NCBI GenBank assembly: GCA_024137785.1
Contig: JAHRHZ010000116.1
Coordinates: 248,001 to 312,000, forward strand
DNA from: Ginglymostoma cirratum
Taxonomy: Eukaryota
Direction: 5' to 3'
DNA: 64,000 nucleotides
Within the stretch, counting starts at the first letter, position 1; each line of letters begins with the position of its first letter. The notes under the pieces were generated by a model that saw only the letters and a program-made list of their open reading frames with translations, had not been told where the DNA came from and did not search any database. Of the stretch, positions 1,275 through 62,814 are shown in pieces. Both the position numbers and the translations under genes were made by a program.

Positions 1275-2229
1275 ATGTTGCCAGGCGTACTTCATTTATT
1301 CCTCACAGCTGCGGCTGCTCTACCAGGTAGGCCGATAAATTGTGGATCTTTCTGTTTCAGATCACCAGGAGTAATTACATTTACTCGATCAATTTCTCCA
1401 AAACAGGAGCAGCAATACATTCGCCCAAATGAAAACAATCATTTGGATTTAACACCAAGCATGTTCAGGGGAATTTAGCGAATGTTTTCAAGTCGATTAC
1501 AGCAGAAGAGTTAGGACGAAAATCTATCCGGGACTGAGGCCACTAACATGCTGTGACAGGAACGGGAGCTTTAAACTCGCTGACTTAAACAGTTGTACGT
1601 TCAAGTTGCAGAGATGAATTGCGAAATGACTTCTGTAGAAGATATGACATGTTTATCAAGAAAGTTTTACTTCGGCTGTTGAAGCTCTTTCCAGTCACAT
1701 TTGCTGCGTTGCGAAAAATGGCTTTTTGGTTAACTTCCCTGATTTGTTCTTCAGGTTGCAGTGGTTTTGCTTCCTGGAATTATTTTTCGGATTGCTGAAG
1801 TTTTTTTTTCAGAAACTGATCCTTCTTGGTAATTCTCATGTTTTGGTTCAATTTGACGGGCCGAATGTGGACAATAAAAAAGAATTTTTTTTAATAAATT
1901 TCCTATTACTCCTTGTTTTTTACAGTATTTTGTCGCGGGGATTCTGTCACTCAGACACCGGCTTCAATCTCAGTGAATGAGAAAGATAATGCCCAGCTGT
2001 TTTGTAACTACACTACAACAAGCAACACTCCTTATCTTTTCTGGTACTATCAACGTTTAAGCGGCTCCATGGAGTTTCTATTATCCAGAAACCAATATAG
2101 TGAGAACACAGTGAGATTTCCAGGTGACCGGTTTTCCGCAGACTTTGATCACGTGAACCACAAAATCGAGCTGAATATATTGAAAACAGAACTAACGGAC
2201 TCCACAGTGTATTTCTGCGCTTTGAGACC
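1275..2229 (+). CDS. TRAV: T-cell receptor alpha/delta variable gene segment, intact (leader exon 1275-1326, intron 1327-1925, V exon 1926-2229)
   Basis: Hydrophobic leader MLPGVLHLFLTAAAALP ends at a phase-1 donor G|GTAGG. Acceptor ttttacag| at 1925. The V exon reads VFCRGDSVTQTPASISVNEKDNAQLFCNY...YLFWYYQ...DSTVYFCALRP, with conserved Cys23, Trp41 and Cys104 and no stops. A 23-RSS follows. Confidence 0.93.
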
Positions 2230-2268
2230 CACAGAGACTGAGACCTGGCCTGAATACGTTCAAAAACT
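2230..2268 (+). promoter_or_regulatory. 23-bp-spacer recombination signal sequence of the + strand V gene
   Basis: Heptamer CACAGAG 2230-2236, 23-nt spacer 2237-2259, nonamer TCAAAAACT 2260-2268. Confidence 0.92.
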
Positions 2269-9632: not shown

Positions 9633-10809
9633 AGAGGGTGTGCATGCTTGCACCTTTTATTAATGTCAATGCTGAATTTTTAAAAAGAATTTAATATTAT
9701 TTTCATTGTATATAATTTTTCCCTCCGAAATGATTGAAGCATTACGTTTTTAAAGCATGAAAAGCGGACTTTCAGCCTTTGTTACAGTGCTAATCATCAA
9801 ATATCAACCTGTTTCGCTCCCATCTTCAATATCTAGGGGTTGGTCGCGGGGAGGATGTTGGGATTCAGTGTAACACAAACAAGTTCTTGAGCAAAATTGC
9901 GGAAATTTTTAGCGTTCACTGCAACATGAAATTCACACTTTTCTTCTTGAACACTATTCCAAAATCCCGAAACCTTTCTCCGAGCTGTTTCTACAATCAT
10001 ACAAATGTGTTGCCTGAGTGTAACGTTTGTTCTGGAATGTCAGTGGGAAGAACCTTGGGCTCTTACATTTGATATTCTGTGCATTTTGGAAATGTAATTG
10101 TCTTTGTAGAAGAGAAAGAGAAAGACAAAGAGACAGTCTCCTCTTGCATCATTTTCACCGGATATGTTCTTTCTTTGGTTCAGATGAAGGGTCATGAGAC
10201 TAACACCATTGACTCTACTTTCCCTTCACAGATGCTACCAGAACTGTTGTGCCTGTCCACTAGTTTCTGCTTTGTTTCAGGTTGACAAATACACAGTTAG
10301 TTATTCTAATTTTGGGCAAAGTGTTCCTTTTTTCTCAGAAGCTTGAAACGCTTCTTTTTATTTTTCGAAACTTCACACTGTCAAGAAAAATAGGAAGAAG
10401 TGACACGGAGATGTCCTTTCTGTAAAAGTGACCAACGCAAATCAAAAGAACAGTGAGCCTGAAAAAATCAGTGAGAAATTAAAAAAAGAGGGAGTGAGTA
10501 ATTTTTGCAGCTGACTTTGATTGGAGTGTAGTAATCATCAATCCTAACAGAGCAGACAATCTTGTTCCTCTTAAACGCCACCAACATCTCGATAAGACCT
10601 TAGCATCGTTCTAGAAGAGACAACGTAAGGAAATCCTCTTGGTTAATTTTCTGTTAAACTCTTTCTCAAAACTCATATGTTGCCCATATGTTTTCCTCAT
10701 ATTAATTCTCTTCCAGTCTGCCGACTCAGGGTTGAAACAGTTAGCATATCATTCAGGAATTATTTATTCTCTCTGAATTTTGAATCGTTCTCCATTTTTT
10801 TTTCCACAG

Positions 10810-11092
10810 GTGTCTGTTTCTCACAAATCATCTGAAATAACGGTTTTGGAAGGGCAAAATGTGACAATAGAGGCTCATTACTCAACAGCTGAACTTTCTC
10901 CGAGACTGTTCTGGTATGCCCAGTATTCCAGGAAAGCTCCAAGCTACTTCCTGAAGGTGCATACCATGGGGGCTTAAGATAAATCTTTAGATTTTTCAAT
11001 GTGGTTCACTACTGATTTATACCAAAATAAAGGTTCCCTAAAGTTACTTCGGGGCTCTTGTATCTGACATTGCCACTAAGCGTGTGCTGATG
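10810..11092 (+). pseudogene. TCR alpha-type V pseudogene
   Basis: Acceptor ttttccacag|, then VSVSHKSSEITVLEGQNVTIEAHYSTAELSPRLFWYAQYSRKAPSYFLK. Cys23 is lost, there is a stop at 10975-10977 and FR3 is frameshifted (GALVSD). A leader-like relic lies near 10675-10731. No clear RSS. Confidence 0.8.
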
Positions 11093-12687: not shown

Positions 12688-12998
12688 ATCAGAGCAATTA
12701 ACTTTCTGTTATTAAGCGGAATCCTTCGCTCACACAGCCACAGTCAGAAGATGTCACTTTAAGCTGCACTTACGCTGACAATCTTTATTCCTTATTCTGG
12801 TACTGTCAGTACCCATGCCGATAGCCAGTATTTGCAGCCCGGAGACACATGAGCGTTGCAGCTGAATTGAGGGAGGATTTTGCTCAGCTGTGGTTTTCCG
12901 ATACAGTCCAGCAGTCAAAGTGGTTGTACCGATTGGCCATCTCGGAGCTGCTATCCTCTGACATCCCGGTCTATTTCCTTGCAGTGAGCCTCACCGTA
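12688..12998 (+). pseudogene. TCR alpha/delta-type V pseudogene with SINE-split RSS
   Basis: Single frame SEDVTLSCTYADNLYSLFWYCQYPCR*PVFAARRH...EDFAQLWFS...LAISELLSSDIPVYFLAVS. Stops at 12699-12701 and 12822-12824; Cys104 is replaced by Leu. Heptamer CACCGTA at 12992-12998. Confidence 0.85.
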
Positions 12999-14784: not shown

Positions 14785-14823
14785 GGTTTTTGTACGGGCT
14801 GACTGAACTTCTGTATCAGTGTG
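14785..14823 (-). promoter_or_regulatory. 23-bp-spacer RSS of the minus-strand V gene
   Basis: On the minus strand: heptamer CACACTG (14817-14823), 23-nt spacer (14794-14816), consensus nonamer ACAAAAACC (14785-14793). Confidence 0.95.
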
Positions 14824-15256
14824 GAGCTTAGTGCACAGTGATAGACAGCAGAGTCAGAGGGAGAAACAGCTGCTATTTTTAATGTAACTATCTTCTTTTC
14901 GTTGTCCAAAATAGCAGAAAACCTGTTGGAGAATTCTTGAGACTTGTCTCCCTGTTCCTTGTTGAATATCTTCAATAAATATCTCGGAGGTTCCCCTGGA
15001 TACTGGACGTACCAGAAGAGAGTCGGAGCAGCATACGTTGTTTGGTAAATGCAGTTCAGGCTTACATCAGCTCCTACCTGAACCGTTTGCTCAAGTGATT
15101 CCGGGGAAACTGAATCTTGGCCGCTCGTTCCTGCAACAAAAACAATTAAGGAGTCAAAAATCTGAGTAAAACAGATGAAACACGCGCTAACAAATTGACT
15201 CCAGACTCACTCGGTGGCATGGCCGTTATTATTACAAAAGCCCACAGGGAAATCAT
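14824..15256 (-). CDS. TRAV: T-cell receptor alpha/delta variable gene segment, intact (leader exon 15256-15211, 80-nt intron, V exon 15130-14824)
   Basis: Leader MISLWAFVIITAMPP with donor A|GTGAGT; acceptor ttgttgcag|. The V exon reads RTSGQDSVSPESLEQTVQVGADVSLNCIYQTTYAAPTLFWYVQYPGEPPRYLLKIFNKEQGDKSQEFSNRFSAILDNEKKIVTLKIAAVSPSDSAVYHCALS, with no stops. The ORF track captures only its 3' half. Confidence 0.95.
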
Positions 15257-31727: not shown

Positions 31728-33424
31728 CCAATATGTTTCAGAAGAATATCTCAGAACTGTTTCCAATCGACATGTCCCGTGGGTTAAGTGTTCTAATTTA
31801 TGAAGAAAATACACTGTCGCATTGTAACCAGCAGTTGACAGATATAACTAAACAGCTACAAAACGGATTGAATCATATTAATAAAAGATCCTAAATAGTC
31901 GTGGGTGTTGTTTGCTATGCTCTTAATCGTGAGTCAAAATTGAACCACCCTTGGTAATTTTGGGACTGTGAACAACTTGTTTGCAATTATTGAAAGCATT
32001 TAAATGTGATCCCAGATGTGATATACAAATTGTGATAATTACTGAGTACAAAACAAGCTTCAAATAGACAGCAATTTGAAAATAAGCAGATCAATTATTT
32101 ATCGATTTGTTCAAAGGGGAAAGGTTTCAGGAACTTAACATTTAATTGAAAAGGGACCGAGAAATCGATGTTGCATTCAATCAATATCAACAGTGTCATT
32201 CTGCAAATGAATTGTGAGGAACGACAGATGTAAAGAGAGGCAGACATTATATTTTTATTCATGTTCATGGTATCTATAATTATAAACATAAACAAATTGA
32301 TCCACAAAAATTGGAGGCCTGCGACAGTTGAGATAGGAATAATGAATACCCCAATCAGCTTGATTTTATTGCTCCAGTGTCAAAACCATGCAATCTTGGA
32401 GACCAGCTTATGTTACCTTTGTTAAAGTCTTGTTAAAGTATCAGGGACCACAAACAACAGGCGATAAATTAAACGGGTAAGGAACATCTAATACAAGGCG
32501 AAAAATGCTAGACAGCAGCAAAGTTCACTGCACAGAAATAAATCAACTTTTACAAACTTTCGAACTGAAAACATGACTTCAAATCGTGGGGTAAACTGGA
32601 TCAGGGAAGAAGTGAAGAAGTGCAGAGACATTGGAGGGTGGAAAATTGCAGCTTGAAATTTAAAAAAATCTATAATTGTGGTCGATTTTAAAATTAATAC
32701 AACAGGGATAAATCGGATTGCTGAAGTTGTGGTGTGGACGATAACTTTATTAAACGCATTTGGGACAATTTCTCAAAGCAGCGCATCCCGAAACCAGACA
32801 AATATATTCGGTTTATTTCGATTTGGTGATGTTTAATAAGTACGCAGTAATTACTTACGCCGTATACAATTTTTTTACAGCAAAATAATCATAACATGGG
32901 AGAATTTCACGTTCTGTTTAATGCAGACATACCTGAGTATAGAACCAGACTCAGATTATTCCAATAAATTTGTTGGGATTGAACGAACAAAACGTTTCCT
33001 CAACCAAAGTGGGGTGAATATATGGAATTCTGGAGCCCAAAGGTATGTGGATACTCGCTCAACATCAATGAGATTAAGTGAAGTTTGGGCTGCAGTAAAT
33101 GATGGAGTAAGAAGATCTGTTGGGAAATTGGTGCTGAGACAGATGATCCGTCATGACCAAACGAAATGGTTCAGCAGCCGTGAGATCCTGAAGGCCTATA
33201 CACACAGAAACACACAGACACACATGCGCGAGCGTGCTTGCTCGCACGAATGGTACAAACACAGTCACAGACCTGGTGCAAACATAGACATAGGCAGATA
33301 TGCACGCATATACAGGTGCTCAAACACGCATACATGGCACACGCTCAAATCCCCAGTCCTTGATACACGCAGACATACACTTGCACACAAACATGTACAT
33401 CTTTGTACATTGCTCCCTAAAGTA

Positions 33425-33777
33425 ATGGCTATTGTAATATTGTATCATTGTGATGCCGTCATAACTGTGGGGTTTGGGATTGGCATTCCATCACAAATTC
33501 AGTGCAGACTCTGTTAACTCTGTAGTTGCTGACGCAAATCCATGAATGTAGTAGACTGAATATTGCACTCCTACTCTTAGAAACCAATAAACTTCCCAGA
33601 CTGTCATTACTTCGAACAACAGATTGGGGCACCTTGGAACGTTGCCAATTGGACTCTAGATGCATTGCTGATATGAAACTATGTGATTCAGCGTTTTGCA
33701 AACCCGTATCTTCTCCACGGCAGGCCCTGATCTATTTTAGTGCATGGGACACATCGAACTAGCCTTTGACAAAACAG
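33425..33777 (+). pseudogene. Possible Ig-light-chain-like V relic with 12-bp-spacer RSS
   Basis: Leader-like MAIVILYHCDAVIT and acceptor tgcag| at 33507, then ..LLTQ..KLPRLSLL..GTLER..LIYFSAWD. It is followed by CACATCG (33750-33756), exactly 12 nt, and ACAAAACAG (33769-33777). Conserved Cys/Trp residues are absent. Confidence 0.35.
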
Positions 33778-34465
33778 AATCTAAACGCATCCAACACACT
33801 ATCAGGGAGCGAATTTCATATAACGACAGAATACTTAAAAAAAACTGTGCCATGTTGCCTCTAACTTTTGCAACATGCATGTATCTCTGCATTTATTGGG
33901 ATAACAGTACATTTTTAAAGCATTATTGAAATTTGACGAAACCAGCATGGGTTATGAAAACAGACCATTCTTCAAGTATCTAACGACCCTTTTCTTTTTT
34001 GAGGCTATATCAAATAGAATAAATAAGAGAGATCAAGTGCATTCACTGTATTTGGAATTTCAGGAAACTTTTGACAGACTCTCACGTAAGATGTTAGTGG
34101 GCAATATTTGACTGGCTATAAGGCTTTGGCACAATGAGCGAGAATTTGTTCACAAGCAGGAAACAGAGTGGGCTTAAATGAATCTTTTATCTGAGTGACT
34201 GCCATCCGCTTCCAATTCACCCAATTTCTCCAGCACTGGCAAAGAAATGGTGTTGGTTCCAAGCTCGAGATAGATGAGCAGAATCTCATGTATTTACAAC
34301 AGAAGTCTATTCCATGCAACCAGCAACCTGATTCCTGTAACAATCCTCTGTTCTTTCGATTCAACACTTTCTGTGCTTTAGGATCAGAATTCAGCAATTT
34401 TCCAAATACTTTGTCAGTGAGTGACTGGAGGCCAGACTGTCTCATACACCACAGCCACAGGAAGC

Positions 34466-34810
34466 ATGGTGGCACCAAGATCTCTTAACCTACTGCATGT
34501 TCGCTTATCCAGTGTATAACTCCAAACAAATTTCCAAACTTTAGCAAGGTTTTCAATTTCCCTGATAATTCGCTTCCCAATGTGGAGGTGGGGTGGGAGC
34601 TTGAGAATTGCACCAGAAATCATGCGTGTTTAAAAAGGACTGATTGACTTTCCTACCTGCACTATCAGATTTGGTTTTGACTCAGTATGAGGCAGGGAAA
34701 ACTATCCCTAAAACCAGTGATCTTGGAGCAGGATCTCCGAAACCAGTGAGTTTCGACCTGAGCAGTTACTATATGTGCTGGTACCAACGAAACTGCAGGG
34801 AAACCCAGAA
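34466..34810 (+). pseudogene. IgH-like (IgM/IgW VH- or TAILV-like) V pseudogene, 5' half only
   Basis: 46-nt leader MVAPRSLNLLHVRLS+A|GT (34466-34511) resembling shark IgH leaders. The V part reads SDLVLTQYEA...KPVS/FDLSSYYMCWYQ (nucleotide aaaccagtgagtttcgacctgagcagttactatatg, approximately KTSGFDLSSYYM). Truncated at an inverted-repeat arm. Confidence 0.65.
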
Positions 34811-34814
34811 TTCC

Positions 34815-35000
34815 ATTGAAACCCAGAAACTTTGAGCAGACAGGAAATTCAAATCTAAAATATCATCTAAATCTTATGACATTACAATTCAAAAACAGTC
34901 CGCTCTGATTAGAGAGGAGAAGTGTTTGCTTGCTGAAGAAGGTTAAATGATCAGGGACGAGCAGTTGCAGTCTCCGAATAACATCGAGGAGCCAGTGTAG
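34815..35000 (+). repeat. Left arm of 186-bp inverted repeat
   Basis: Reverse complement of 36871-37056, with about 5 mismatches by eye. Confidence 0.95.
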
Positions 35001-36870: not shown

Positions 36871-37056
36871 CTACATTGGCTACTCGATGTTATTCGGAGA
36901 CTGCAACTGCTGGTCCCTGATCATTTAACCTTCTTCCGCAAGCAAACACTTCTCCTCTCTAATCAGAGCGGACTGTTTTTGAATTGTAATGTCATAAGAT
37001 TTAGATGATATTTTAGATTTGAATTTCCTGTCTGCTCAAAATTTCTGGGTTTCAAT
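36871..37056 (-). repeat. Right arm of 186-bp inverted repeat
   Basis: Reverse complement of 34815-35000. Confidence 0.95.
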
Positions 37057-39077: not shown

Positions 39078-41984
39078 TCAGTCTATCTTGCAATGTTTAA
39101 AACATCCAAAGAGCCAAGTGAAAGGATACATTATTAGTTTCTTCGCCTCCTCCCGGAATCTCTTCTGAGCCACTGCAAAGATGAAGACATTGTTCAAGGA
39201 ATTGACTAACTGGAACATGTTGGTCATCTCTTGCAAGCCGTACCATGGATCATTAGGCAAAGTATATCCCTCACCTGTAAGCTGTCCATAGAGGTAATGC
39301 ACAATATAGGCTGCCCACGAGAGTAGGAAGCTAAAAGAAATGGCGAAGAGCAGGACAATGGACTTTTTGCGGTTGGTCATCTCTAAGTCTCCATGATTCT
39401 TGGTGATGCAAAGCTTCCGACGAATTCTGCTCGCCGCCAAGATGTGTCTCGCTGTCAGGACATTAAGCAGAAGAATGAGAAGGAACGGAAGACAGGGAGT
39501 TAAGATATGGTCCAGCCAGTCATAGGCCTGCCAAACAGGTGATGTGTAACAGATGAGCTTGATATCGCAGAACCAGGGCACTCCATCCACCACGTACAAT
39601 GGCTGAAAGACAAAATAGAATGGGACGTTCTTGACGCAGCTCAGGACACAGAGCATTCCTATGATCCATGAAGCAGTTTTTTGGGTGCAATACCTAATCT
39701 TTAGACTGTGACAACGGATGGATACAAAGCGGTCGATGGTAAAGGCCACAGTAAGCCAAACTGAGCCATCGCGAGTGGTATAAATGAGCACAGTGCTAAG
39801 GGTACACCCTTGGGTAGTAAACATAACACTGTTTGAAAAGTAGATTCCGCCGATTCTGTTGAGAATACAACCAGAAATGATAACAAGGAAATCAGTCACA
39901 GCTAACGCCAGCAGGTAGAAGGTGATGCAATGAGAAAGGCCACATCGTCCTCGCGATAGGATTATGATCACTGCCAGGTTTGCTGTGGAAAATAAGAAGA
40001 GATTTTTCCACAATTGATTTATGAGTGTGTTGCCGAGATTAGAGAGTTTTAGCTAAAGTGATAGGCTGAGTATCCGGGAATGATTTTCCCTGGAGCATCG
40101 GAGGCTGAGGGGTGATCTTACAGAAGTTTATCAAATCATGATGGGCATACATAGAATGAATAGCAAAGGTATTTTACCCAGGGCAGCGGAGCCCATTATT
40201 AGAGGGCATAGGTTTAAAGTGAGAGGGGAAAGATGTAAAAGGAACCTAAGTTGCCAATTTTTCACATAGAGGATGGTGCGTGTTTGGAATGAGCTGCCAG
40301 AGGAAGTGATGGATGCTGGTAAAATTACGACGTTTAAAAGGCATATGGATGTTTACATGAATGGGAAGAGTATATAGGGATATGGGCCAACGACTGGCAA
40401 ATGGAAAGAGACCAATGTTAGAAATCTGGTCGGCATGGACGAGTTGGACAAAAAGGTCTGTTTCCATGCTGTACAGCTCTATTATTCTATAATTGACTGG
40501 GCTCATCTCTCCAATAGCTCATTATAACGGCCCAGTTAATCCTTTACTATCTGCAGATTCTACATATCCTGAAACAGTTTGTATTTGTTTGCCACATTCA
40601 AATTCATTAACATTGATCCCACCACAAAATATGCTCTCAGGACACTGGGCTAATATTTCTGCAAACGATTTGCAACTCATTTGTTTTTATTCATGTAAAT
40701 CCCTGTCAATCCAACTGCTCTGTGTTTATTGACTTAAATTGACTCCTAGACTGGTAATTTCAAGGATTTGACATAATCGAACATCGACATTTGAAATGCC
40801 TTCATCCTCTCTCTACTGAGGTACTATTAAAGTTCCAGAGCCACCACATTTCTCAGACCCCCTCTAATTGTCGTTCCATTTGCATTTTTGATTTTCAACT
40901 CTCTATCAGTGACATTTGTGCATTTGACTGTGAAAGTCTAAGTCTCTGGTGTTTACTTACTCAATCAATCCCTCTTTTCTTCCTTGCTCAAAATGTTCCT
41001 AATGACAAAACTTCTTCACCAGAGATACCTTTCGTCTTGAATAAGGAATTTGCATCTTTGAGTAAAAAATATAGATGCATTTGAACTCCTTCAATTCATC
41101 ACACCACATAAAATATAGCCACTATAAGTCCACCTTCCAAACTAATAACCAGGGAGTGGCAACAAATGTTAACCTTACCAGGGAATGTCCCGTTCCATGG
41201 TGATCAAAACTATGGCTACTTAAACTGCACAAATCCCGACGTGCAAACAACAAACACAGTAGATGAAACATCTTGCACCTGTAGTTTCCACTTTCAAATA
41301 GTACAATAGTACTTAATTCCAAATAGTACAATAAAAATGAGGAAAAAACAATTAGACCTCACTATGCTGCTCCTAATATCTCATTCATTCTGAGACCGCG
41401 AGACAAATTCCTACATTGAATGGAAATACATTGATATTACAATTCAGTTAGTATAGTGATTATGTTGCCAAAATTCATGTTCCGTACTGCAATAAGACAA
41501 CAGTGCCAAATGCATATCACTGTATCGTATGGCATGGCATTAGTTTAAAAACAAACGTAAGTTTGCAGATTGCTGTCATGGGGTAAAAGTTAACTTCCAC
41601 GAAGACGACACATTAATGTCACAAGTTCCCACAAGATGATCCATATTTCAGTCATTGGTTAAATGGTACGTCCGTGAATAACGAATAATAAATTGAATTG
41701 TATCCTTTAATGGTCAATGGACCAAGCTCAAATGATGTACTCTCGTTGAGCACCACAAAGTACAATATCTTAAAAGGCACAGGCATATATTGGGAATTAG
41801 TTTATGTCCTTATTCAGACAACATTGAATATTGTAGCAAAAATTCATTTTTGTCCTGAAAGGGGAGACAAATTGCTTCACAAGAATAAATAACTTTTTTT
41901 AATCTATTACTTACCAGGAACACCGATAACCGCGAGAATAGGATAGCAAATGGCATAGAAGGCTCCAGTGGCTTGCCCGTGCAT
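39078..41984 (-). CDS. GPR139-like class A GPCR, intact, two exons (41984-41915 and 39982-39078), 324 aa
   Basis: Exon 1 reads MHGQATGAFYAICYPILAVIGVP+G|GTAAGT; acceptor ttccacag|. Exon 2 reads ANLAVIIILSRGRCGLSHCIT.YLLALAVTD...SVWLTVAFTIDRFV.I...PFLLILLLN...KSIVLLFAIS...QKRFREE. Seven hydrophobic segments; the spliced length of 975 nt is in frame. Confidence 0.9.
40040..40490 (+). mobile_element. CR1 3' fragment in the GPCR intron (antisense to the gene)
   Basis: RRLRGDL..YQIM and RVWNELP motifs, plus the CR1 tail. Confidence 0.85.
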
Positions 41985-51143: not shown

Positions 51144-51758
51144 GATAAAAGGTACTGCAGATGCTGGAGAATCCGAGATAACAAGCATGGGGCTGGATGA
51201 ACACAGCAGGCCAAGCAGCACCATAGGAGCAGGAAAACTTGACGTTTCGGGCCTAAACCCTTCATCAGAAAATCATTTTTTNNNNNNNNNNNNNNNNNNN
51301 NNNNNNNNNNNNNNNNNNNNNNNNNNNNNNNNNNNNNNNNNNNNNNNNNNNNNNNNNNNNNNNNNNNNNNNNNNNNNNNNNNNNNNNNNNNNNNNNNNNN
51401 NNNNNNNNNNNNNNNNNNNNNNNNNNNNNNNNNNNNNNNNNNNNNNNNNNNNNNNNNNNNNNNNNNNNNNNNNNNNNNNNNNNNNNNNNNNNNNNNNNNN
51501 NNNNNNNNNNNNNNNNNNNNNNNNNNNNNNNNNNNNNNNNNNNNNNNNNNNNNNNNNNNNNNNNNNNNNNNNNNNNNNNNNNNNNNNNNNNNNNNNNNNN
51601 NNNNNNNNNNNNNNNNNNNNNNNNNNNNNNNNNNNNNNNNNNNNNNNNNNNNNNNNNNNNNNNNNNNNNNNNNNNNNNNNNCCCGAAACGTCAAGTTTTC
51701 CTGCTCCAATGATGCTGCTTGGCCTACTGTGTTCATCCAGCCCCATGCTTGTTATCTC
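51144..51758. mobile_element. Penelope-derived insertion with inverted termini spanning an assembly gap
   Basis: About 51176-51252 and 51682-51758 are reverse complements. The direct repeat AAATTTAATTAGA at 51131-51143 and 51759-51771 is a likely TSD. Confidence 0.8.
51282..51681. other. Assembly gap (400 N)
   Basis: Run of N. Confidence 1.
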
Positions 51759-53469: not shown

Positions 53470-54784
53470 ATGAGATAATAGGTACTGCTGATGTTGGAGA
53501 ATCCAAGATGACAAGGTATGGATCTGAATGAACACAGCAGGCCAAGCAGCATCATAGGAGCAGGAAAGCTTGACGTTTCGGGCCTCGACCCGTCATCAGT
53601 AATGGGGGAGGGGAAGAGGGTTCTGAAATAAATAGGGAGAGAGGGGGAGGCGGATAGAAGTTGGATAGAGGAGAAGATAGGTGGAGAGGAGACAGACAAG
53701 TCAAAGAGGCGGGGATGGAGCCAGTAAAGGTGAGTGTAGGTGGGGAGGTAGGGAGGAGATAGGTCAGTCCAGGGAGGACGGACAGGTCAAGAGGGCGGGA
53801 TGAGGTTAGTACATTGGAGATGGGGGTGCGGCTTGAGGTGGGAGGAGGGGATAGGTGAGCGTAAGAACAGGTTAGGGAGGCGGGGACGAGCTGGGCTGGT
53901 TTTGGGATGTGGTTGGGGGAGCGGAGATTTTGAAGCTTGTGAAATCCACATTGATACCATTGGGCTGCAGGGTTTCCAGGCTGAATATGATTTGCTGTTC
54001 CTGCAACCTTCGGGTGGCATCATTGTGGCACTGCAGGAGGCCCAGGATGGACATGTCGACTGAGGAATGGGAGGGGGAGTTGAAATGGTTCGCGACTGGG
54101 AGGTGCAATTGTTTGTTGCGAACTGAGCGCAGGTGTTCTGCACAGCGGTCCCCAAGCCTCCGCTTGGTTTCCCTGATGTAGAGGAGGTCACAACGGGTAC
54201 AGCAGATTCAGTATACCACATTGGCAGATGTGCAGGTGAACATTTGCTTGATGTCGAAAGTCTTCTTGTGGCCTGGGATTGGGGTGAGGGAGGAAGTGTG
54301 GTGGCAAGTGTAGCACTTCCTGCTGTTGCAGGAAAAGTGCTGGGTGTGGTGGGGCTGGAGGGGAGTGTGGAGCGGATAAGGGAGTCAGGGAGAGTGTGGT
54401 CTCTCCGGAAAGTGTACAGGCGTGGGGAGGGAAAAATGTCTTTGGTGGTGGTGTCGGATTGCAGATGGCGGAAGTGTCAGAGGATGATGCGTTAGATCCG
54501 GAGGTTGGTGGGGTGGTACGTGAGGACGAGGGGATTTTTTTTGGTTGTTATTGCGGGGACGGGGTGTGAGGGATGAGTTGCGGGAAATGCGGGAGACACG
54601 GTCGAAGGCGTTCTCGACCACTGCAGGGCGGGGTGGGGGAGTGTGGAAGTTGCGGTCCTTGAGGAATGAGGACATCTGAAATGTACGGGAGTGCAATGCT
54701 TCATCCTGGGAGCAGATGCGGCGGAGGCGAAGGAATTGGGAATAGGGGATGGCGTTTTTGAAGGAAGGTGGGTGGGAGGAGGTA
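53470..54784 (-). mobile_element. Young 5'-truncated Penelope-like element
   Basis: Highly similar to 60519-61955 in opposite orientation. Contains the GIY-YIG region, HLPVANHFNSPSHS, and a pLTR end with a hammerhead core. Confidence 0.9.
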
Positions 54785-60487: not shown

Positions 60488-61955
60488 ACGAGGCGGCGCC
60501 GATGCAGTCATCAATGTATCGGAGGAGTTCATCCACTTCACCAACACCTTCCACCCCAACCTGAAGTTCACCTGGACCATCTCCAACACTTCTCTCTCCT
60601 TCCTGGACCTCTCTGTCTCCATCTTGGGTAACCGCCTAGAAACCGATGTCCATTTCAAGCCCACTGACTCCCACAGCAACCTGGAATACACCTCCTCCCA
60701 CCCACCTTCCTGCAAAAATGCCATCCCCTATTCCCAATTCCTTCGCCTCCGCCGCATCTGCTCCCAGGATGAGACATTCCACTACCGTACATCTCAAATG
60801 TCCTCATTCTTCAAGGACCGCAACTTCCCCCCAACAGTGGTCGAGAACGCTCTCGACCGTGTCTCCCGCATTTCCCGTAACACATCCCTCACGCCCGGTC
60901 CCCGCAATAATAACCAAAAAAGAATCCCCCTCGTCCTCACGTACCACCCCACCAACCTCCGGATCCAACGCATCATCCTCTGACACTTCTGCCATCTGCA
61001 ATCAGACCCCACCGCCAAAGACATTTTCCCCTCCCCACCCTTATCTGCCTTCCGGAGGGACCACTCCCTCCGCGACTCCCTTGTCCGCTCCACACTCCCG
61101 TCCAGTCCCACCACACCCGGCACTTTTCCCTGCAACCGCAGGAAGTGCTACACCTGTCTCCACACCTCCTCCCTCACCTCAATCCCAGGCCCCAAGAAGA
61201 CTATCCACATCAGGCAGATGTTCACCTGCATATCTGCCAAAGTGGTATACTGCATCTGCTGTACCCGTTGTGGCTTCCGCTACATCGGGGAAACGAAGCG
61301 AAGGCTTGGGGACCGCTTTGCAGAACACCTGCGCTCAGTTCGCAACAAACAACTGCACCTCCCAGTCGCGAACCATTTCAACTCCCCCTCCCATTCCTCA
61401 GACGACATGTCCATCCTGGGCCTCCTGCAATGCTACAGTGATGCCACCCGAAGGCTGCAGGAACAACAAATCATATTCAGCCTGGGAACCCTGCAGCCCA
61501 ATGGTATCAATGTGGATTTCACAAGCTTCAAAATCTCCCCTCCCCCAACCGCATCCCAAAACCAGCCCAGCTCATCTCCACCTCCCTAACCTGTTTTTCC
61601 TCTCACCTATCCCCTCCTCCCACCTCAAGCCGCACCCCCACCTCCTATCTACCAACATCATCCCGCCCCCTTGACCTGTCCATCCTCCCTGGACTGACCT
61701 ATCTCCTCCCTACCCCCCTACCTACACTCACCTTTACTGGCTCCATCCCTGCCTCTTTGAATTGTCTGTCTCCTCTCCACCTATCCTCTACTCTATCCAT
61801 CCTTTATCCGCCTCCCCCTCTCTCCCTATTTATTTCAGAAGCCTCTTCCCCTCCCCCATTTCTGATGAAGGGTCTAGGCCCGAAACGTCAAGTTTTCCTG
61901 CTCCTATGATGCTGCTTGACCTGCTGTGTTCCTCCAGCCCTACGCCTTGTTATCA
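60488..61955 (+). mobile_element. Young 5'-truncated Penelope-like element with 31-bp 5' inversion
   Basis: RT C-terminus (FLDL, KPTDSHSNLEYTSSHP), one internal stop at 60981-60983, and GIY-YIG VVYCICCTRCGFRYIGETKRRLGDRFAEH. Positions 60488-60518 encode YIDDCIGAAS on the opposite strand. Confidence 0.92.
61862..61889 (+). ncRNA. Minimal type I hammerhead ribozyme core in Penelope pLTR
   Basis: CTGATGA, stem II (gggtc/tag/gccc), GAAAC and GTC. Flanking stem I pairing is poor in this copy. Confidence 0.5.
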
Positions 61956-62814
61956 TGGATACATGTTTCTCCTGCTTACATGAAGGTTGAGTAAGTGAAG
62001 TTATAGCTTTGCGAGTTTTTTTTCCACCGGCCACATGACATTGAACAACCTGATAGACTGGGGGTAGGGAAAGCATAAGAGAAGACACGTCAGAAGCATC
62101 GAAAGTGAGAAATTGAGCAATATTTTGAAACCAATCATCCTGAAGAGCAGAACCTGAGTTCAGAAGTCTGAAAAAAATTCAACCTTTTGGGAAGAGTGAG
62201 AGTTCACGTAAAGTATATACGATTGTGAGACATCTCTGGCGGTGTACATGTTGAATACCCATTTTCTCGTTTGGAGCATTCTAGAGTTGGGGAGCATTGT
62301 TTTAAAATAGGAGTCGCCTATTTTAGAACGAGAGTGCATGATATATTTTCTTTCGAAATATCATAACGTTTTCCTACTCTGCTCCCTAAAAACATGGTGG
62401 GAGCAATCATTTTGAATATTTTAAGTCTGTGCTAGTTGCTTTGTTGGTAGTCAACGAAATGAAAGATTGTCAAGGTGGTAGAAAGAGCCGATTTGATTTT
62501 ATGCCCAGATTAAGCATAAAGTAGTTGAAATTTCCAGTAGAATCATTCAGCAAATATCGTGCGCACATTGCTAACAAGTCTGGACATATATGTTTTCTGC
62601 ATGTCTTTAATAGCATCAGTCATCTTGCTGATGTTTCAATTTTCAGGCATAACAATGTGTGTTAGCCTGTTTCTTCAGCAAACTCTAAATAAATTGCACG
62701 TCAGAGCTTAATTATGTCTCCGGAGAATCTCACTCCGAATAAATGAGGGATGCCTCAATGTGTTTCAGGACTAAATTCGACAACACTGAATGTTATTTGT
62801 GTTTTTCAATGACA

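What the first reader, a model, noticed from the sequence alone, without database searches (positions are those of the whole stretch)
34466..34810. Immunoglobulin heavy-chain-like V relic embedded among TCR alpha/delta V genes
Seen: a 46-nt phase-1 leader and an exon reading SDLVLTQYEA...(KTSG)FDLSSYYMCWYQ, which is the FR1-CDR1 signature of shark IgM/IgW VH rather than of the neighbouring TRAV-type genes. Established: sharks rearrange IgH-type V segments and TCR-associated Ig-like V (TAILV) onto TCR delta/alpha. Inference: this is a germline fossil of an Ig-like V that lived in cis within the TCR V array. The WYQ in FR2, instead of the usual IgH WVRQ, could mark a distinct lineage.
Basis: partly seen in the sequence, partly recalled or inferred. 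Interest (0 to 1): 0.7.

Follow-up and report, generated by a model that had tools for sequence, protein, structure and literature searches.

The report
Dead shark antibody-like T-cell gene fragment
This is the broken front half of an antibody-like variable gene segment in a shark T-cell receptor region, likely copied from a neighbour that was already dead, while a living relative is joined to a T-cell receptor delta joining segment, so it is likely ordinary debris of a known gene type.

Summary
The relic is real. It has a 46-nt leader, an intron and the 5' half of an IgH-like V exon (profile E 2.4e-47; best of 20 shuffled windows 4.1 bits against 158). It is not an IgM V (AU test p 1e-13), and the tree places it apart from IgW too. 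It belongs to a V family with 16 further copies or fragments 234-440 kb away on the same contig, which carries TCR-type V segments and no detected J or C. Three of 12 members examined are intact. One is spliced and joined in frame to a TCR-delta J in a public contig. Gene models of three other sharks hold the same family beside TCR parts. The relic's 1.5-kb block is 77% identical to one pseudogene and shares its stop, frameshift, lost Cys23 and lost splice acceptor, so it was likely dead when copied. It has no 3' half and no recombination signal, so it cannot rearrange. Tyr after Trp41 marks the family (10 of 10; IgM/IgW 0 of 17) but is also the TCR state. The scan had already noted the parent cluster on other DNA (e1-9546246).

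The parts
33279..34791 (+). Duplicated block (upstream DNA, leader, intron, 5' V exon), 76.6% identical to G000:C116:648469-649986
   Evidence: K2P distance 0.27 over 1499 aligned bases
34466..34511 (+). Leader exon, 46 nt, phase 1, ATG intact, hydrophobic core degraded
34512..34656 (+). Intron, GT donor kept, canonical acceptor changed to AC
34657..34811 (+). 5' half of an IgH-like (TAILV-type) V exon: FR1, CDR1, Trp41 (34779), part of FR2; Cys23 lost, 5-nt and 1-nt insertions, TGA in the ancestral register
34815..35000 (+). 186-bp segment that stands in place of the V 3' half; inverted copy of 36871-37056, 5 differences in 186
36871..37056 (-). Second copy of the 186-bp segment

Best explanation
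It is a non-functional 5'-half pseudogene of an IgH-like V family that sits among TCR alpha/delta V segments (likely the TAILV lineage), and it likely arose as a DNA-level copy of a family member that was already dead. Shown: it belongs to the family, its sister is the pseudogene at C116:649.6k, the two share several inactivating lesions, and it lacks the 3' half and the RSS, so RAG has no signal to cut at. Shown for the family: an intact member (C116:714k) is spliced and joined in frame to a J of the cluster that splices to the delta-type C exon. Inferred: the copy moved from the cluster to this place and not the reverse; the 3' half was lost later, in an event that left a 186-bp inverted copy at the break; C116 lies just upstream of the delta D-J-C on C115; living members pair with TCR gamma, helped by the TCR-type Tyr after Trp41.
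For: Family profile hit E 2.4e-47. DNA tree of 22 V exons: relic with V649k 100/100, family of 12 against 10 IgM/IgW 100/100, relic held with IgM rejected at p-AU 1e-13. 43 shared derived bases with V649k in 305 informative columns, against 2-13 with each of the 10 other members. Shared: FR1 insertion with TGA, extra T before FDL, Cys23 lost (TCC / TTC), acceptor lost (AC / AT), His in the leader core. The intron and 1.2 kb of upstream DNA are in the duplicate, so it is not a retrocopy. A 3'-half profile finds nothing between 275k and 408k on C116 at E up to 10. No J motif and no C-domain hit in the C116 tiles; none of 150 scored C1-set matches lies on C116. Run X2 holds a 1375-nt contig: spliced leader and V714k with 0 differences, 16 other letters, then the J at C115:2614846-2614911 with 0 differences. 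A J of that cluster runs on into the C exon at C115:2625800 in run X1. That exon is C1-set, lies between the D-J cluster and a large J array and is 45% identical to the C region of catshark XP_038644089. The family is also in gene models of Scyliorhinus canicula, Chiloscyllium punctatum and Cetorhinus maximus, next to TCR V, J or C.
Against: The published TAILV sequences and papers were not held, so the name rests on the definition, not on sequence identity. Two of the shared lesions have different letters in the two copies (acceptor AC / AT, Cys23 TCC / TTC) and could be separate events. C116 and C115 are separate contigs; their adjacency is inferred from a shared V subfamily and an N stretch on C115. 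No C exon here was named TCR delta by a database: the PDB search gave only IgH C domains and the homologue search gave nothing. The other sharks' records are automatic gene models, one named 'Ig heavy chain Mem5-like'. In the protein tree the family is not a supported clade (not rejected, p-AU 0.38). No reads were laid on the relic itself.
Confidence: 0.85

Rival explanations
1. The relic was once a working TCR-associated Ig-like V at this very place and decayed here.
For: ATG, 46-nt leader and GT donor survive; it lies in the TCR V array; two shared lesions differ in their letters.
Against: The identical extra T, the FR1 insertion with TGA and 43 shared derived bases put the damage before the duplication. 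The branch shared with V649k is long (0.28). It would hold only if the ancestor died here and the dead gene was then copied into the cluster.
Confidence: 0.08
2. It is the remnant of an IgM or IgW cluster (a true VH) that was inserted among the TCR V genes.
For: The family is 40-60% identical to IgM-type V at protein level; IgM clusters lie on C115, the contig with the TCR D-J-C; PMC12227049 reports all IgH isotypes linked to TCR alpha/delta.
Against: Grouping with IgM is rejected, p-AU 1e-13; leader, intron and upstream DNA match the C116 family; no D, J or C was detected on C116; Tyr after Trp41 occurs in 0 of 17 IgM/IgW V.
Confidence: 0.03
3. The fragment has a present role, as a short spliced peptide through the cryptic acceptor or as a donor for gene conversion.
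For: The cryptic AG at 34667-34668 would keep leader and exon in frame, and the frame is open for 58 codons.
Against: The open frame comes from two cancelling insertions; Cys23 is gone; Pfam sees no domain; it is only 58-60% identical to the intact members; its end branch is long (0.27).
Confidence: 0.03
4. The truncation is an assembly error and a full-length pseudogene lies here.
For: The break coincides with a 186-bp inverted repeat, and the assembly has gaps.
Against: The two copies differ at 5 of 186 bases; the nearest N run is 16 kb away; no orphan 3' half of matching age was found on C116 (the one at 650.8k is 91% identical to V649k's own end).
Confidence: 0.04

Closest known systems
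[quoted passage not shown] 2019, not held; the term as defined in a passage of PMC12227049; further detail recalled)
   Same: IgH-like V lying among TCR alpha/delta V segments, with no D-J-C of its own detected, apart from IgM/IgW V in trees, and a family member joined to a TCR-delta J.
   Different: This copy is a dead 5' half without RSS. Sequence identity to the published TAILV could not be tested. Here the family has 17 copies or fragments on one contig; I recall the original work as reporting few germline segments.
Shark IgM and IgW VH used in trans-rearrangement to TCR delta (passages of PMC5931798, PMC6795676, PMC12227049)
   Same: Split leader, VH-like FR1 and CDR1, 23-nt RSS in intact members, use on TCR delta.
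   Different: Separate lineage; Tyr instead of Val/Ile/Phe/Leu after Trp41; not part of an IgH minicluster.
VH-delta of Xenopus, birds and platypus (title in the reference list of PMC12227049; otherwise recalled)
   Same: Antibody-type V resident in a TCR delta locus.
   Different: Relationship not tested here; no such sequences were in the trees.

Membership tests
TAILV | IgH-like V sequence | tested here: met
   Family 40-60% identical to IgM-type V and 18-40% to TCR V; relic in the family
TAILV | Resides among TCR alpha/delta V segments without its own D-J-C | tested here: met
   C116 fetched whole as tiles: many TCR-type V, 0 J motifs, 0 C hits; gaps remain
TAILV | Lineage distinct from IgM and IgW V | tested here: met
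   DNA tree 100/100; relic with IgM rejected, p-AU 1e-13; IgM+IgW clade excludes the family 98/99
TAILV | Rearranges to TCR delta D-J-C (family level) | tested here: met
   One contig joins V714k in frame to a J of the delta cluster; the C part of that contig is inferred
TAILV | Able to rearrange (this copy): complete V exon and 23-RSS | tested here: not met
   No 3' half, no RSS, Cys23 and acceptor lost; filed as a pseudogene of the family, not a functional member
TAILV | Not expressed with IgH constant regions | tested here: inconclusive
   Only one rearranged contig seen in 4 runs laid
TAILV | Groups with the published TAILV sequences | not testable with these tools
   Papers not held; no hit named TAILV among 3+3 listed homologues or the 8 of 150 looked up by name
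Shark IgM/IgW VH | Part of a V-D-D-J-C minicluster | tested here: not met
   No J or C detected on C116
Shark IgM/IgW VH | Groups with IgM or IgW V; aliphatic or Phe residue after Trp41 | tested here: not met
TCR alpha/delta V (TRAV/TRDV) | Groups with TCR V sequences | tested here: not met
   7 TCR V are separated from family plus IgH, 99/99; the relic's only tblastn hits come from family queries

The most novel reading that the evidence does not exclude
The relic marks an old, shark-wide family of antibody-type V segments living in the TCR alpha/delta array that is older than the split of IgM and IgW V and keeps the TCR-type Tyr after Trp41. It would then be a surviving intermediate, with VH having arisen from a TCR-delta-resident V rather than this family having been borrowed from IgM. 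The best tree places the family outside IgM+IgW (98/99), but a tree with the family joined to IgM is not rejected (p-AU 0.25).
Probability: 0.15. Interest if true: 0.6.

Novelty: new member of a known kind. Interest (0 to 1): 0.14.

Why it matters
The fragment itself matters little: it is a dead duplicate. What it leads to is more useful to shark immunogenetics: a germline map of a 17-copy IgH-like V family in the TCR alpha/delta array, with three intact members, one seen rearranged to a delta J, and counterparts in three other sharks. This gives the germline references needed to tell cis use of such V segments from trans-rearrangement of true IgM/IgW V, and to test whether the family predates the IgM/IgW split.

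Tried and rejected
The degenerate RSS-like match at window 37949 (minus strand) lies in sequence that matches repeats elsewhere on C116 and has no V before it. The inverted copy at 36871-37056 does not carry the missing V half. The orphan V 3' end at C116:650.8k is a younger local copy of V649k's end (91% over 250 bases), not the relic's lost half. Pfam PF09291 search for C-alpha found nothing and rang in no control, so C-alpha was not located. Homologue searches with the V gave ordinary IgH V and one snake gene model; with the C exon nothing. Deiss 2019, Ott 2021 and Criscitiello 2010 are not held; their supplements, which likely hold the TAILV alignments, were not seen. Paper searches: TAILV+shark+TCR gave 1 paper; TAILV anywhere gave unrelated papers among the 20 of 836 listed; searches gave no description of TAILV sequences. 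No run was listed as a confirmed RNA holder; X4 raw reads matched V714k only over a 34-base stretch with 3 differences, a paralog. Dating: the epaulette-shark pedigree rate (7e-10 per generation, PMC10587355, passages) turns K 0.27 into about 2e8 generations, which is implausibly old, so no date is given beyond 'ancient'. No complex or structure prediction was run, as the relic encodes no domain.

Full report
Observation. The window is G000:C116:248001-312000. A 46-nt leader starts at 34466, a GT donor follows at 34512, and an open frame reads LSDLVLTQYEA...FDLSSYYMCWYQ. A DNA profile from 7 relatives, built without the relic and without its closest paralog, matches 34362-34802 at 158 bits, E 2.4e-47, over positions 3-422 of 639. 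The best score in 20 shuffled windows was 4.1 bits. The feature is real. The frame is open only because a 5-nt and a 1-nt insertion cancel; in the ancestral register there is a TGA, Cys23 reads TCC, and the acceptor reads AC. Homology ends at about 34811. A profile of the 3' half finds nothing between 275k and 408k of C116 at E up to 10, so CDR2, FR3, Cys104 and the RSS are gone. At the break starts a 186-bp segment that is an inverted copy of 36871-37056, with 5 differences. The small distance suggests that the truncation is much younger than the duplication described below (inference).

Surroundings. I fetched all of C116 (756,842 bases) as tiles. It carries many V segments on both strands, most of TCR alpha/delta type and most broken. 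No J motif and no C-domain hit were found in the tiles, and none of the 150 scored C1-set matches (of 248 candidates) is on C116; assembly gaps remain. In the window two TCR-type V look intact (1927-2230 plus, 14823-15130 minus) and two are broken. The relic is the only clear V-like element between 263k and 384k, in a zone rich in single-exon GPCR genes.

What it is. The profile finds 16 further copies or fragments at 516-722k (7 of them were its seeds). Of 12 members tabulated (relic included; 5 fragments or visibly broken copies left out), 3 have ATG, GT, AG, an open frame, both cysteines, Trp41 and a 23-RSS: V586k, V714k, V721k. In a DNA tree of 22 V exons the 12 family rows form one side against 8 IgM-type and 2 IgW-type rows (100/100; labels given by me from sequence likeness and nearby C exons). 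The relic pairs with V649k (100/100), and holding it with IgM is rejected at p-AU 1e-13 (the relic fills 48% of the columns). The residue after Trp41 is Tyr in 10 of 10 family proteins, 0 of 17 IgM/IgW and 7 of 7 TCR V. Intact members read WYR; WYQ is shared only with the dead V649k.

How it arose. Window 33279-34791 is 76.6% identical to C116:648469-649986, K2P 0.27, and includes the intron and 1.2 kb of upstream DNA, so the copy was made at DNA level. Relic and V649k share 43 derived bases in 305 informative columns; the other 10 members share 2-13 with the relic. Both carry the FR1 insertion with TGA, the extra T before FDL, the loss of Cys23 and of the acceptor, and a His in the leader core. 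The simplest reading is that a dead V was duplicated and the copy landed 367 kb away. Against this, two lesions differ in their letters, and the direction of copying is inferred from V649k being full length and inside the cluster.

What the family does. A public contig (run X2, 1375 nt) matches the V714k leader and exon with 0 differences, skips the 162-nt intron and runs on in other letters. Part of those letters matches 43 places in the genome, one of them a J segment with a 12-RSS on C115. Laying the same runs there shows the 1375-nt contig on that J at record positions 431-496 with 0 differences: V, 16 junction letters, J, in frame. This J is in a cluster behind a D segment. The first J of the cluster runs on into the C exon at C115:2625800 in run X1, and a large second J array follows, which is the alpha/delta layout (established knowledge). 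The exon is C1-set, 45% identical to the C region of catshark XP_038644089, with a matching membrane exon at 2627638. The end of C116 carries the same V subfamily, on the same strand, as the DNA just upstream of that D on C115, up to 91% identical, beside an N stretch; adjacency is likely but not shown. Gene models of S. canicula (family V, J, C), C. maximus (several V, family V, J, C) and C. punctatum (TCR V next to a family V) show the same arrangement. That the Tyr helps pairing with TCR gamma V is an inference from recalled VH/VL interface rules.

Comparison with what is known. [quoted passage not shown] PMC5931798 and PMC6795676 (passages) describe IgM/IgW V on TCR delta; PMC3964593 (passages) notes Ig-TCR linkage in elephant shark. 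The TAILV paper and its review were not held, so other detail is recalled, and their figures and supplements could change the name given here. The family meets four tested TAILV features; exclusion from IgH C is inconclusive and sequence identity untestable. The relic itself fails the ability to rearrange and is filed as a pseudogene.

Boldest reading. In the protein tree of 34 rows rooted on TCR V, IgM, IgW and a Callorhinchus VH form a clade without the family (98/99), and an earlier tree with untrimmed ends agreed (99/99). This would make the family older than the IgM/IgW split. But family plus IgM is not rejected (p-AU 0.25), the outgroup is distant, and the family is closer in identity to IgM than to IgW. 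I give it 15%.

Earlier scan notes. e1-9546246 describes the parent cluster on DNA 307 kb beyond this window and also names TAILV; it counted one living antibody-type segment in its stretch, which fits V586k, and I find two more further on. No note covers the relic.

Verdict. A real, ancient, dead fragment of a known kind of segment. Interest 0.14.

Noticed in passing
window 39078-40052 (-): Stop-free 324-codon rhodopsin-family GPCR frame (7tm_1, E 1.7e-18); tblastn finds about 16 further copies or fragments on C116 between 2k and 550k, several without stops. The label GPR139-like comes from earlier scan notes and was not tested.
   Followed up: partly
window 1927-2230 (+) and 14823-15130 (-): Two apparently intact TCR alpha/delta-type V segments with leader and 23-RSS, on opposite strands.
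   Followed up: partly
window about 10807-11050 (+) and 12705-12990 (+): Two broken TCR-type V segments with stops.
   Followed up: partly
L068, G000:C116:650588-650837 (-): Inverted local copy of the 3' end and RSS of V649k, 91% identical over 250 bases, with a better heptamer than V649k's own.
   Followed up: yes
L105-L113, G000:C115:2610975-2699640 (+): TCR delta D, about ten J, C and membrane exons, then a large J array; the nearest upstream V segments lie mostly on the opposite strand and would rearrange by inversion.
   Followed up: partly
L013, L015, L017, L019 (C101, C115, C130, C127): IgM-type V exons that run straight into a J motif without RSS, i.e. germline-joined heavy-chain genes.
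   Followed up: no
L021, L023, L033 (C282): TCR delta-type V segments that appear to lack a nearby leader, like the supporting V of NAR-TCR (label recalled).
   Followed up: no
window 53501-54783 and 60690-61960: Two inverted copies, 90% identical, of what looks like a retroelement end (ORFs); a 400-N gap lies at 51282-51681.
   Followed up: no
L007 laid reads, runs X1 and X3: Contigs 90-95% alike to V714k, one spliced, point to a further allele or paralog of the family that is not in the assembly.
   Followed up: no
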